Shown here in pieces: positions 26,526-37,884 of a stretch of DNA of 64,000 bases. A program made the translations under genes and the position numbers. Below the pieces are notes generated by a model. The model did not search any database and was not told the DNA's origin. It was given only the letters and a program-made list of their open reading frames with translations. Origin of the DNA: Octopus vulgaris (lineage: Eukaryota); contig OX597830.1 in NCBI GenBank assembly GCA_951406725.2, forward strand, positions 63,426,001 to 63,490,000, in the 5' to 3' direction. Positions within the stretch are counted from its first letter, which is position 1; each line of letters begins with the position of its first letter.

Positions 26526-28457
26526 GGTGAACACTACCTTCAAGGAAAAAATCTTCAAGATTGTTATCGCATAAGTGCTTATTAATTTGTTGAAAACATG
26601 AGAACCAGGAGAAAGAGTGAGAGAGAACAGAACCATATACTTCAAGATAGAAATTATTTCATTTTTCTCCTAAGTGATCTAAAAAGCTAGCACCTGGTAA
26701 CAGGCTAAGAACTATATACAACGTCAGTAATTTAGACAAGAAATACATGTTTCAAAATATAAACCATTAAATATGTTACCACAAATATAATTGTCAACAA
26801 CCAATTAATTAGAAACCTATTTTTGTGGCCTCTTACCAAAATAAGAAATATCTCGTTTAGTTTCTTTAAAATTCTCTTTCGGTTTTCCTCTCTTATTTTC
26901 TTCCTCTGCTCGTGTTTTTTTAATGATTTTTTTTTCAAATTTTCATTTTATATCCGTTTGTTACTTTATGATTGCAAAGACTTCTGGTTTCTATAATTTT
27001 TTTGTATTTAAAAATTTTTTGTTTTGTTTTGTAATACTTGCATGTAAAATTGTTGTGCAATTTATTTCATAACCAAATATTCCTTTCTCAAAAAAAGAAA
27101 ATAAATAAAAATAAAAAATCAACCTTTTATGTTGACTTTCATGACAGAAAGCAAGTCAGAACATTTCCGAAAAGCCCTTTTAGTCATTAACAAAAAAAAA
27201 AATTCACTTTTCATTTTGATATTCTTGATCTCCAACTTAACATAGAACACAAAATATTGTGTTATCTACCTCAAAAGATCATGTGATGCATAAAAGCACT
27301 CATCATTGTATCGTTGACAGATAAGAACTATCTCATAATTTCATGGAACCAGATCCCATGATTTCGGCCTGCTATGTGTTCTTCAGTGACAGATATCCTG
27401 CAGTGGTATGACAGCTGAATCTCCCGTCAATGATTTATAGCATCTCAGTGTCTTTTCTACCACTGGTGTCACAAACAGCAAGTGTTGTAATTTTCATGAC
27501 ATGACTATAAGTGTTAGTGTAGCTAAGTGGTTAAGAAGATTGCTTCACAACCATGTGGTCTTGGGTTCAGTGGCACTGTATGTGAGGTATTTACTTTGGG
27601 TATGGTATTCACTTGTGAGTGAATTTGGTAGCATGAAACTGAAAGAAGCTCGTTTTGTGTGTGTGTGTGTGTCTGCATGTGTATGTATGTGTATATGCAT
27701 TTATGCGTGTGTCCTTGTCTTGACATTATGTTTTTATCGCAAATAAACATCGCATTCATGTAAACAGTGTTTTGGACTCAGGAAAAAGGTGAAAGTTGGT
27801 AATGGGAAGAGTATCCAGCCATAGAAATTTTGCCTGATCACACAAACATTGAAAAGTGGATATTAAAATGGTGATGGTGGCAGTGCTGGGGATTGAATTG
27901 CATCCGACACTGGACTTAGTTCCACTGGATTTTGATTCAAGGAATCTTTCGCCTTTTACATGTTTCAGTCATTAGACTGCAGCCTTGTTGGGGCACCACC
28001 TTGGAGACTTTTTAGTCGAATGAATCGACTCTAGGACTTATTTTAAAAGCTTGATACTTATTCTATAGTCCCATTTGCTGAACTGTTAAGTTACAGGGAT
28101 GTAAACACACCGACACCAGTTGTCAAGTAGTGGTGGGGGGCACATACATACCCACACACACATACACTTATATATGACAGTTTCTTTCAGCTTCTCTCTA
28201 CCAAATCCACTCACAAGGTTTTGGTCTAGCTGAGGCTATAGTAGAAAACACTCGGCCAAGATGCCATGTAGTGAGATTGAACTCAGAACCATGTGGTTGG
28301 AAAGCAAGCTTCTTTTATTCATTCAGTTGGCCACAAGGGCCTTACAAAGAAAGGAGGCTGCGGGCTGGACAAAGACATAATGAGATGAAATGATAGACGA
28401 TATGATAATAATGAGGGCAACAGCAATGCCTGCCGATTGCTGTTTATCGAGCACATT

Positions 28458-28509
28458 CATCATCATCATTTAGCGTCCGTTTTCCATGCTAGCATGGGTT
28501 GGACGGTTT
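28458..28509 (-). mobile_element. Extreme 3' tail of the RTE LINE, joined to the 7SL 3' end
   Basis: On minus it reads AAACCGTCCAACCCATGCTAGCATGGAAAACGGACGCTAAATGATGATGATG, the same tail as the RTE copies at 30223-31451 and 51406-52083. Confidence 0.9.
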
Positions 28510-28802
28510 TTGGTGTTCAGTTATATCGAACAGGCTGCCAGCCGACGACTATTCACAGGCGCGATCCCACTACTGCTCGACACGGAGTCTTTTGCCTGCT
28601 GCGTTTCCGCCCTGGGCCGAAGCGACCCTCCTTAGACAATCTGGTCCTGATGAGCTCCCTCTCCAGCACCATATTGATGCCGAGCTTAGCGCGGACACCC
28701 GATCGCCATTGAAGACCGACTACCAGGACTCCCATCCTCAAACCGGTCAACCAACCAAGCCTCCGAGTAGCTGGATTACAGGAGCACGCCACAACTCCCA
28801 GC
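28505..28802 (-). ncRNA. RN7SL: 7SL / signal recognition particle (SRP) RNA, full length (~298 nt); gene or retrocopy
   Basis: Reverse complement starts GCTGGGAGTTGTGGCGTGCTCCTGTAATCCAGCTACTCGGAGGCT (Alu domain). It contains GATCGGGTGTCCGCGCTAAGCTCGGCATCAATATGGTG, helix 6 GAG-GGAG-CTC, CTAAGGAGGG, helix 8 CCAGGGCGGAAACGCAGCAGG and CAGTAGTGGGATCGCGCCTGTGAATAG, all collinear with metazoan 7SL. There is no oligo-T terminator downstream. Confidence 0.93.
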
Positions 28803-29242
28803 TAACATTGTTCTTTATAAATACTTATTGAGGCAACAAACCTCTTACATCACAAAACATAAACGAGGCAATTAACCTCTTACAAGAAAGCCATTATGAG
28901 GCAGTAACCTCTTACATAAGTCAGAACACATAAATACAATAAATCAATACAAATGAAGCACCAAGCCTCTTACTTGAATTCATTATAAGTCTTTTTGCCA
29001 CACAGCCACCTAAATACATAGAAAGTGAATTAACCCTTTAACATTTAAACCGGCTAGCCATATCTGGCCAAAATGTTCTACTTCCTCTATGTTCAGATTG
29101 GCCAGATCCAACATCTCACACCCACCCTACAATGTCATTGTAAAAATAAACAAATCACAGCATCAAAATCTTGAAGCTACAAGATAATGGGATGATTAAT
29201 TTAGAACAATGGGAATAAATAAGCATTTTTTTTTACAGTGTA

Positions 29243-36232: not shown

Positions 36233-37884
36233 TGAGGTGATATCAAAAAGTTCATGGACAAGTTAAATTTAATAAAAAATAACTTATTTACCCAAGTTTT
36301 TCCAGCATCTGCTTCGAAATACACTGGCCCCAGCATCTGCACAGCAATACACTGGCCCCAGCATCTGCACAGCAATACACTGGTCCCAGCATTCCTGCAC
36401 AGCAATACACTGGCCCCAGCATCTGCACAGCAATACACTGGCCCCAGCATCTGCACAGCAATACACTGGCCCCAGCATCTGCACAGCAATACACTGGCCC
36501 CAGCATCTGCACAGCAATACACTGGCCCCAGCATCTGCACAGCAATACACTGGCCCCAGCATCTGCACAGCAATACACTGGCCCCAGCATCTGCACAGCA
36601 ATACACTGGCCCCAGCATCTGCACAGCAATACACTGGCCCCAGCATCTGCACAGCAATACACTGGCCCCAGCATCTGCACAGCAATACACTGGTCCCAGC
36701 ATCTGCACAGCAATACACTGGCCCCAGCATCTGCACAGCAATACACTGGCCCCAGCATCTGCACAGCAATACACTGGCCCCAGCATCTGCACAGCAATAC
36801 ACTGGCCCCAGCATCTGCACAGCAATACACTGGCCCCAGCATCTGCACAGCAATACACTGGCCCCAGCATCTGCACAGCAATACACTGGCCCCAGCATCT
36901 GCACAGCAATACACTGGCCCCAGCATCTGCACAGCAATACACTGGCCCCAGCATCTGCACAGCAATACACTGGCCCCAGCATCTGCACAGCAATACACTG
37001 GTCCCAGCATCTGCACAGCAATACACTGGCCCCAGCATCTGCACAGCAATACACTGGCCCCAGCATCTGCACAGCAATACACTGGCCCCAGCATCTGCAC
37101 AGCAATACACTGGTCCCAGCATTCCTGCCACATTTGGAATCCAGCCTGGAAGTTGTTTTCTGTAAGCAAGTTGAGGACCTTCTGAAATTGGCTCTGAATC
37201 TCAGCAACGGTGTTAAAACAGTGACTTTTGAGCTGTATTTTCACCTTGGTGAATAGATGGAAGTCTGCAGGTGCTAAATCTGGTGAATAGGGCAGGTGTG
37301 GAAATGTTACCATGTTGTTCTCAGCAAGAAACTCATGTGTGGAGAGAGCTCGATGACAGAATGCATTGATTTTGTGTAGAATCCAGACGTTAGGATTGCC
37401 TGCATGGACCTATATGACAGACCAAGCCATCAGCATTGTTGTTCATTGTTCTCTGACGATCTTCATGCACAAACTGATGAATTGTCTCCACATTTCTTGG
37501 TGTGATGCTTGTGGTAGGTTTTCCAGGTTGCTCCATTGTCTCCCAGTGACATTCTTGTGCTTTTGAAGTGCTTGAGACATTGCATATTACCCTTGTTGCA
37601 GTTAGCTTGCTGAAGCCTGCTTAATGTCTCTGCAGTAGACTTCCAAAGTTCGATACAAAATTTCAATTTGGCTCTTCGTTCCTGTCCATGATGAGAATCA
37701 CAGACTACAGCATACACGTGATCACAAAAACACAAATTTCACAGCTTACAAAGTAAACACAACAATGTCACTTAGCACACTGCCTCATGAAGGTCACTGC
37801 TAGCTCTCACTAAGCATGGGGCAGTGTGCTGCCATCTGTTGGCTCACTACAGAACTAGTCCAGGAACTTTTTGATACCACCTTG
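36233..37884 (-). mobile_element. Defective mariner transposon with both TIRs, TA target sites and an internal minisatellite
   Basis: TIRs are TGAGGTGATATCAAAAAGTTCATGGACAAGT (36233) and the reverse complement of the right end, CAAGGTGGTATCAAAAAGTTCCTGGACTAGT (26/31 match). Both are flanked by TA. Transposase remnants: LKFCIELWKSTAETLSRLQQA (N-terminal HTH) and HLPYSPDLAPADFHLF (mariner YSPDLAP motif). Confidence 0.92.
36302..37123. repeat. 28-bp minisatellite, ~29 copies (TGGCCCCAGCATCTGCACAGCAATACAC)
   Basis: Near-perfect tandem units with no spacers. Variant TGGTCCC units start at 36381, 36691, 36999 and 37111. Confidence 0.97.

What the first reader, a model, noticed from the sequence alone, without database searches (positions are those of the whole stretch)
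28458..28802. Full-length 7SL RNA fused to the RTE LINE tail: retro-chimera or nascent 7SL-derived SINE in an invertebrate
Seen: a complete ~298-nt SRP RNA with intact helix 6 (GGAG loop), helix 8 (GAAA loop) and many unmutated CpGs. Where a Pol III oligo-T terminator should be, it runs through a shared AAACC microhomology into the last ~50 nt of the local RTE LINE (palindrome CCATGCTAGCATGG plus (GAT)n). Known: U6/7SL-L1 template-switch chimeras exist in mammals, and 7SL-derived SINEs are best known from primates, rodents and relatives. Inference: a Pol III head plus a LINE recognition tail is SINE architecture. This is either a one-off RTE template switch or a member of an independently evolved 7SL SINE family.
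Basis: partly seen in the sequence, partly recalled or inferred. Interest (0 to 1): 0.88.

Follow-up and report, generated by a model that had tools for sequence, protein, structure and literature searches.

The report
7SL retrocopy carrying a LINE tail
A near-complete copy of the 7SL (signal recognition particle) RNA sits joined to the last 50 bases of a jumping gene and was inserted as one unit, likely because the jumping gene's reverse transcriptase hopped onto a 7SL RNA; it is a single copy, not a new SINE family, and almost every scattered 7SL and U6 copy examined in this genome has the same build.

Summary
Rfam SRP scores 234.9 bits; 7SL bases 1-293 join a 49-nt tail identical to 2,493 copies of a young RTE-type LINE. 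Paralogs of the host repeat give the empty site, so a 5-bp duplication (AATGT) flanks head plus tail as one insertion. The SINE-family reading fails: the junction pattern has 1 match in the genome, the 7SL 5' motif only 37, and tail types do not follow 7SL lineages. The claimed AAACC microhomology is absent from the source 7SL. The wider result: 36 of 38 dispersed 7SL copies and 36 of 40 dispersed U6 copies examined run straight into a same-strand LINE or SINE end, from two LINE lineages and several SINEs, mostly entering at the foot of the 3' stem-loop; none of the 38 has a plain poly(A) tail (background 68 of 4,037). This is the known template-switch chimera class of vertebrates, here in an octopus-type genome. 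The scan noted the same class twice before in this genome (U6, tRNA heads). Expression was not tested.

The parts
28510..28802 (-). 7SL/SRP RNA retrocopy, bases 1-293, of a minor gene lineage (T3,T17,A215,T217,C283,A289) with 2 private substitutions (T93A, G163A)
   Evidence: Rfam; alignment of 7SL copies
28507..28509 (-). Junction AAA: two or three A match the LINE context (GAA/AAA before CCGTCC); 0-1 nt overlap with 7SL, no AAACC microhomology
28458..28506 (-). 3' end of an RTE-type LINE: predicted stem-loop CCGUC...GACGG enclosing the CCAUG-CUAG-CAUGG hairpin, then (GAT)n
   Evidence: 43-nt stretch has 2,493 exact copies; upstream ORF with endonuclease and RT in long copies; fold z -3.31
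28453..28457 (-). Target-site duplication, 3' copy (AATGT)
   Evidence: 10 of 11 host-repeat paralogs are contiguous across this site
28805..28809 (-). Target-site duplication, 5' copy (AATGT)
28803..28804 (-). Two extra bases (TA) at the 5' junction, in neither host nor 7SL; likely untemplated
   Evidence: also in contigs of runs X1 and X2
27953..28999 (.). Unclassified interspersed repeat (about 0.7 kb without the insert) that was interrupted; at least 40 places in the genome
30238..31452 (-). 5'-truncated copy of the same RTE-type LINE family in the window (ORF C-terminus, 3' UTR, same tail), used for comparison

Best explanation
This is a single processed 7SL pseudogene joined to the last 49 bases of an RTE-type LINE and inserted as one unit, likely by a template switch of the LINE's reverse transcriptase. 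Shown: head, tail, one target-site duplication around both, no gene upstream region, no terminator, no daughter copy. Inferred order: the LINE protein bound its own RNA at the 3' stem-loop, nicked the host repeat at AATGT and primed on the (GAU)n end; after copying the stem-loop it stalled in the short linker before the next hairpin, jumped to the 3' end of a 7SL RNA trimmed by a few bases, copied it to base 1, added two bases and integrated. LINEs that need their own 3' stem-loop would copy small RNAs only by this route, which explains why nearly all dispersed 7SL and U6 copies here carry a LINE or SINE end. The copy is likely silent because it lacks the upstream sequence of true genes (inferred, not tested).
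For: One duplication flanks head plus tail, empty site in 10 of 11 paralogs. The head starts at 7SL base 1 with no blastn match to the 300 nt upstream of five genes. Junction pattern 1 match; tail 2,493 copies. 36 of 38 dispersed 7SL loci and 36 of 40 dispersed U6 loci run into a sense-strand element end; 0 of 97 loci antisense; control 68 of 4,037 random 60-mers. One 7SL lineage carries three tail types and one tail type sits on several heads. The entry point lies at the foot of the predicted terminal stem-loop in both LINE lineages, where 9 of 30 and 20 of 30 copies of two CR1-type subfamilies also begin. Whole SINEs directly follow 7SL or U6 in 7 and 10 motif-called loci, and one donor carries an intron-containing tRNA with trailer and T6: such ends are not the 2',3'-cyclic phosphate and 5'-OH that RtcB ligation needs (PMC6789731; end chemistry of these RNAs is recalled). 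Exact contigs cover the 5' junction in two samples of two studies.
Against: Switch and ligation leave the same DNA; this copy's 7SL is 3'-trimmed, which PMC6789731 notes can create a ligatable end. For this RTE subfamily 0 of 30 sampled copies are as short as this tail, so the stall site is not a common truncation point there (2 of 14 other window copies are). The motif set was built after seeing the loci, so the census is partly circular; 5 loci were called by eye; 2 of 38 7SL and 3 of 40 U6 loci have no recognised tail and one more (L138) is unclassified. The junction contigs have 29-30 letters on the 7SL side, just under the tool's 31-letter rule, and one run may be the source animal. Clade names rest on architecture and recalled motifs, not on a tree.
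Confidence: 0.8

Rival explanations
1. RNA ligation first: a trimmed 7SL RNA was ligated to a cleaved LINE RNA fragment (RtcB-type), and the chimeric RNA was then retrotransposed in one pass.
For: Shown for U6/L1 in human cells (PMC6789731). The junction lies in a predicted single-stranded linker between two hairpins, a plausible cleavage site, and this 7SL is 3'-trimmed.
Against: Most 7SL chimeras here keep the U-run, often with extra purine-rich bases (mean 4.6 nt in 20 7SL against 1.7 in 22 U6, p 0.045, crude), which suggests 3'-OH, adenylated ends as reported for human 7SL (PMC12811392). Whole SINE RNAs (5'-triphosphate, recalled) and an unspliced tRNA take part in the same class.
Confidence: 0.12
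2. A nascent or low-copy 7SL-derived SINE mobilised by the RTE-type LINE, as in hagfish.
For: Pol III head plus LINE stem-loop and microsatellite tail is SINE build; the copy is young (2 private changes); the tail donor is abundant and young; no T4 run for 260 nt, so a transcript would include the tail.
Against: 1 junction match; 37 exact 7SL 5' motifs genome-wide; S domain intact, unlike Alu/B1 and SINE1-1_EBu (PMC7245038); tail classes need 7 of 9, 6 of 6, 5 of 5 and 3 of 3 changes on the 7SL tree; the one copy with an S-domain deletion (L208) has no sister across its deletion among 40 scored of 119 candidates.
Confidence: 0.04
3. Two separate insertions: a short LINE end landed at the 3' end of an existing 7SL copy, or the reverse.
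For: LINE ends are dense here (15 in 64 kb) and minimal 50-nt ends occur alone.
Against: One duplication encloses both parts and none lies at the inner junction; element motifs follow small RNAs only on the sense strand and only at the 3' side; true 7SL genes with T-runs have no such insertions (0 of 16).
Confidence: 0.03
4. Assembly artefact joining two repeats.
For: Both parts are multicopy.
Against: Clean duplication and empty site; exact contigs over the 5' junction in X1 and X2 and over the 3' junction in X1; dozens of like structures genome-wide.
Confidence: 0.01

Closest known systems
U6-L2, U6-RTEX, U6-Mon-1 and U6-AnolisSINE2 template-switch chimeras in platypus and Anolis (Doucet et al. 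2015, PMC4476161; passages and section 10 read)
   Same: Small Pol III RNA in sense ahead of a short 3' piece of a stem-loop-dependent LINE or its SINE; short duplications (1-9 bp there, 5 bp here); no poly(A) retrocopies.
   Different: That study covers vertebrates and U6 ('invertebrate' 0 occurrences); here the head is 7SL, the host an octopus-type genome, heads are mostly near full length, and the entry point is fixed at the stem-loop foot.
7SL/LINE-1 chimeras in human (Law et al., PMC11838501; passages read)
   Same: 7SL head on a LINE 3' end within one duplication.
   Different: L1 donor with poly(A); reported as much rarer than U6 chimeras; here chimeras are 36 of 38 dispersed 7SL copies examined.
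SINE1-1_EBu of hagfish (Kojima 2020, PMC7245038; parts 1-3 of 4 read)
   Same: 7SL-derived head, RTE-derived tail with trinucleotide microsatellite.
   Different: 2,363 uniform copies, S domain deleted, bipartite RTE body. The paper uses that deletion to exclude a chimeric 7SL-RTE retrocopy; this locus is that excluded case, and resembles the precursor step of its model.
U6/L1 chimeras made by RtcB ligation (Moldovan et al. 2019, PMC6789731; abstract and section 18 read)
   Same: Same final DNA structure.
   Different: Needs a 2',3'-cyclic phosphate and a 5'-OH; not expected for intact 7SL, precursor tRNA or whole SINE RNA (recalled).
P7SL_MD and P7SL_Cpo, full-length 7SL plus poly(A) (as described in PMC7245038)
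   Same: Full-length 7SL head whose SINE status is unproven.
   Different: Poly(A) tail and, for P7SL_MD, over 12,000 copies; here a LINE stem-loop tail and one copy.

Membership tests
SINE1 (7SL-derived SINE family) | 7SL-derived head | tested here: met
   Rfam 234.9 bits
SINE1 (7SL-derived SINE family) | 3' end recognised by a partner LINE | tested here: met
   Tail identical to 2,493 LINE ends; recognition itself is inferred
SINE1 (7SL-derived SINE family) | Many copies with one uniform head-tail junction | tested here: not met
   1 junction match; 37 exact 5' motifs, 16 in genes; second RTE-tailed copy has another junction
SINE1 (7SL-derived SINE family) | Shared diagnostic changes or S-domain deletion inherited with the tail | tested here: not met
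   S domain intact; T93A and G163A private against the six copies compared; tail classes scattered on the tree
SINE1 (7SL-derived SINE family) | Transcription of a master copy | not tested
   Both read-laying runs went to DNA runs; no RNA run laid
Small RNA/LINE chimeric retropseudogene | Small RNA in sense, directly 5' of a 5'-truncated LINE 3' end | tested here: met
Small RNA/LINE chimeric retropseudogene | One target-site duplication around both parts | tested here: met
   AATGT; empty site in 10 of 11 paralogs
Small RNA/LINE chimeric retropseudogene | RNA-length boundaries, no gene flanks | tested here: met
   Starts at base 1; upstream is host repeat
Small RNA/LINE chimeric retropseudogene | Formed by template switching rather than ligation | not testable with these tools
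   Indirect support only
Functional 7SL gene | Oligo-T terminator after the RNA | tested here: not met
   First T4 260 nt away; 16 gene loci have one
Functional 7SL gene | Upstream sequence shared with other genes | tested here: not met
   No blastn match to five gene upstream regions; two minor genes also match only weakly, so the test is soft
RTE-clade LINE (tail donor) | Endonuclease and RT in one long ORF, microsatellite 3' end | tested here: met
   L141/L144; RVT_1 E 4e-32; Exo_endo_phos_2 E 5.7e-05, below cut-off
RTE-clade LINE (tail donor) | Placement in the RTE clade on an RT tree | not tested
   No reference clade sequences at hand; label rests on architecture and recalled C-terminal motifs; identity with RTE-2_OV not established

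The most novel reading that the evidence does not exclude
This locus, or one of its sister chimeras, is transcribed through its tail and is a transposition-competent master: an invertebrate 7SL-derived SINE caught before its first amplification, in a genome that has made dozens of such starts.
Probability: 0.04. Interest if true: 0.75.

Novelty: new member of a known kind. Interest (0 to 1): 0.35.

Why it matters
The single locus is an ordinary fossil of a known process. The set it belongs to is more useful. Head-plus-tail fusion is the proposed birth step of SINEs, and this genome holds at least 36 independent 7SL fusions and over 40 U6 fusions with young, still abundant donors, yet no 7SL SINE. 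That suggests (inference) that gaining a tail is easy and that transcription or loss of the S domain is the limiting step, which can be tested by comparing these loci. The fixed entry at the stem-loop foot and the use of 7SL, precursor tRNA and whole SINE RNAs give a natural data set for the switch-versus-ligation question outside L1. No report of such chimeras in a cephalopod was found in searches of an open-access library.

Tried and rejected
SINE family: rejected by counts and tree. A hagfish-like S-domain-deleted family: one old copy found (L208), no sister. AAACC microhomology: rejected. Joints that skip the insert carry paralog-type letters and do not show an empty orthologous allele. 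Run X7 (another organism label) holds the flank but showed no listed junction contig: not interpretable. Free-energy folding of the whole chimera did not recover the SRP fold (z -0.44); the covariance model was used instead. Pfam on the window's LINE fragment gave only a weak AT-hook; NCBIfam, PDB and Atlas searches confirmed a non-LTR-type RT but not its clade. ARAGORN missed the intron-containing tRNA that Rfam found. Supplement searches of two octopus repeat papers found no matching sequence or 7SL entry (files 5-8 of the second paper were not searched and any external repeat library was not seen, so the class may be annotated there). Four older 7SL fragments listed were not fetched. The 7SL tree's bootstrap had not settled and left out copies under 265 nt, among them L046.

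Full report
Observation. cmscan finds one Rfam match in the window: Metazoa_SRP at 28508-28802 (-), 234.9 bits, helices 6 and 8 with GGAG and GAAA loops. The genome (2.8 Gb, 227 contigs; octopus-type, inferred from repeats and size) holds true 7SL genes: 13 in a cluster on C5 near 143.1 Mb and three more on C5, all ending in oligo-T; the cluster genes share upstream sequence. Against them the window copy is 7SL bases 1-293 of a minor lineage, with two private substitutions, and lacks the last few bases and the U-run. It continues AAA-CCGTCC into a 49-nt tail. A 43-nt stretch of that tail has 2,493 exact copies; in 30 of 30 loci read it is the end of a longer element, and long copies carry an endonuclease plus RT reading frame. 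I call it RTE-type from architecture and recalled motifs; no tree was made.

One insertion. Both flanks belong to one interspersed repeat. Ten of 11 paralogs fetched are contiguous across the site, and the two flank alignments overlap by five bases: AATGT is duplicated around head plus tail, with two extra bases at the 5' end. Exact contigs cover the 5' junction in runs X1 and X2 (two studies) and the 3' junction in X1, though with 26-30 letters on the shorter side, under the tool's 31-letter rule; one run may be the source animal.

Not a family. The junction pattern has 1 match genome-wide. The 7SL 5' motif has 37 exact matches, 16 in genes. Of 54 7SL loci fetched, 38 are dispersed; two carry this tail type, the window copy and an older one with another junction. 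On a tree of 40 copies the tail classes are scattered, and the one starred retrocopy clade holds three tail types and a gene (bootstrap unsettled). One old copy lacks the S domain but has no sister.

The wider class. 36 of the 38 dispersed 7SL loci run into a same-strand LINE or SINE end: 28 by motif, 3 by blastn, 5 by eye; none has a plain poly(A) tail. Of 48 U6 loci scored, 8 look like genes or their duplicates and 36 of the other 40 behave the same, 4 with the RTE-type end. No locus has a motif in antisense after the RNA; random 60-mers carry one in 68 of 4,037 draws. The motifs were chosen after seeing the loci. The commonest donors are two subfamilies of a second LINE, CR1-type by recalled motifs and 27% identical to the first over the RT, and SINEs sharing their tail motif. 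A strict pattern finds 46 U6 ends followed within 16 nt by that motif, against 196 exact U6 ends by a slightly different pattern. Among the first 30 copies of one subfamily on C1, two are U6 chimeras and one follows an intron-containing tRNA with trailer and T6. Entry points cluster at the foot of the predicted terminal stem-loop, where plain truncated copies of the CR1-type subfamilies also begin (9 of 30 and 20 of 30, the latter including the three chimeras); for the RTE-type subfamily 0 of 30 are that short.

Mechanism. Shown: structure, duplication, single copy, class. Inferred: priming on the LINE's own RNA, a stall after the stem-loop, a jump to the 3' end of 7SL. Ligation before copying gives the same DNA and is proven for U6/L1 (PMC6789731), but needs end chemistry that whole SINE RNAs, precursor tRNA and U-tailed 7SL are not known to have (recalled); 7SL junctions also carry more extra purine-rich bases than U6 junctions (20 of 21 7SL loci scored, 22 U6; p 0.045), weakly in line with 7SL adenylation in human cells (PMC12811392, abstract and section 9). 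End-to-end jumping by R2 RT is recalled; I saw only its citation. The locus has no gene-like upstream match and no T4 for 260 nt; that 7SL needs upstream sequence for strong transcription is recalled. Expression was not tested.

Comparison. Doucet et al. (PMC4476161) report that L2 and RTE-like LINEs and their SINEs make U6 copies only as chimeras in platypus and lizard; Law et al. (PMC11838501) list rare 7SL/L1 chimeras; Kojima (PMC7245038) describes an RTE-mobilised 7SL SINE in hagfish, and (PMC4494074, passages) gives the criteria separating a SINE family from summed chimeras, which this case fails. Two octopus repeat papers (PMC13282606, passages; PMC9115989, passages and section 6) have 0 occurrences of 7SL in the main text. 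Searches listed no report of such chimeras in a cephalopod; the library lacks most subscription papers. Two earlier notes of this scan describe the same class in this genome with U6 and tRNA heads.

Verdict. Real, a one-off chimeric retrocopy, new member of a known kind; the genome-wide pattern lifts it somewhat. Interest 0.35.

Noticed in passing
L198:1490-1667 (-), G000:C1 near 10.21 Mb: Intron-containing tRNA (Rfam 50 bits) with 3' trailer and T6 fused to a 55-nt CR1-type tail: an unspliced precursor was captured.
   Followed up: partly
L138:527-790 (+), G000:C2 near 23.37 Mb: Two U6 copies head to tail followed by an unclassified element end: possible double template jump.
   Followed up: no
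L208:389-760 (+), G000:C3 near 101.67 Mb: Old 7SL copy lacking bases 124-205 (S domain) followed by a whole SINE, the build of the hagfish SINE1; no sister copy found.
   Followed up: yes
L148-L207: Two young CR1-type subfamilies (1,143 and 5,019 exact tail matches) leave many ~50-nt insertions made of the terminal stem-loop alone (9 of 30 and 20 of 30).
   Followed up: partly
G000:C5:143.06-143.12 Mb; L026; L028: Cluster of 13 7SL genes about 3-6 kb apart, plus diverged single genes; the lineage that made the window copy has no intact-looking source among the loci fetched (L028 differs at 14 sites).
   Followed up: partly
L209:660-800 (+): 7SL followed by six tandem repeats of a SINE's first ~20 bases before the whole SINE; L081 shows the same behind U6. 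May record repeated re-priming at the SINE 5' end.
   Followed up: no
L032, L079, L183/L184, L201: Inverted duplications at or next to retro-insertions (fold-back or twin-priming-like).
   Followed up: no
window 36302-37122: Tandem array of a 28-bp unit, 29 copies, 98% alike.
   Followed up: no
L144:2579-5218: The RTE-type ORF carries a Cys/His finger after the RT (weak PHD match); Atlas clusters share RVT_1 plus PHD.
   Followed up: partly
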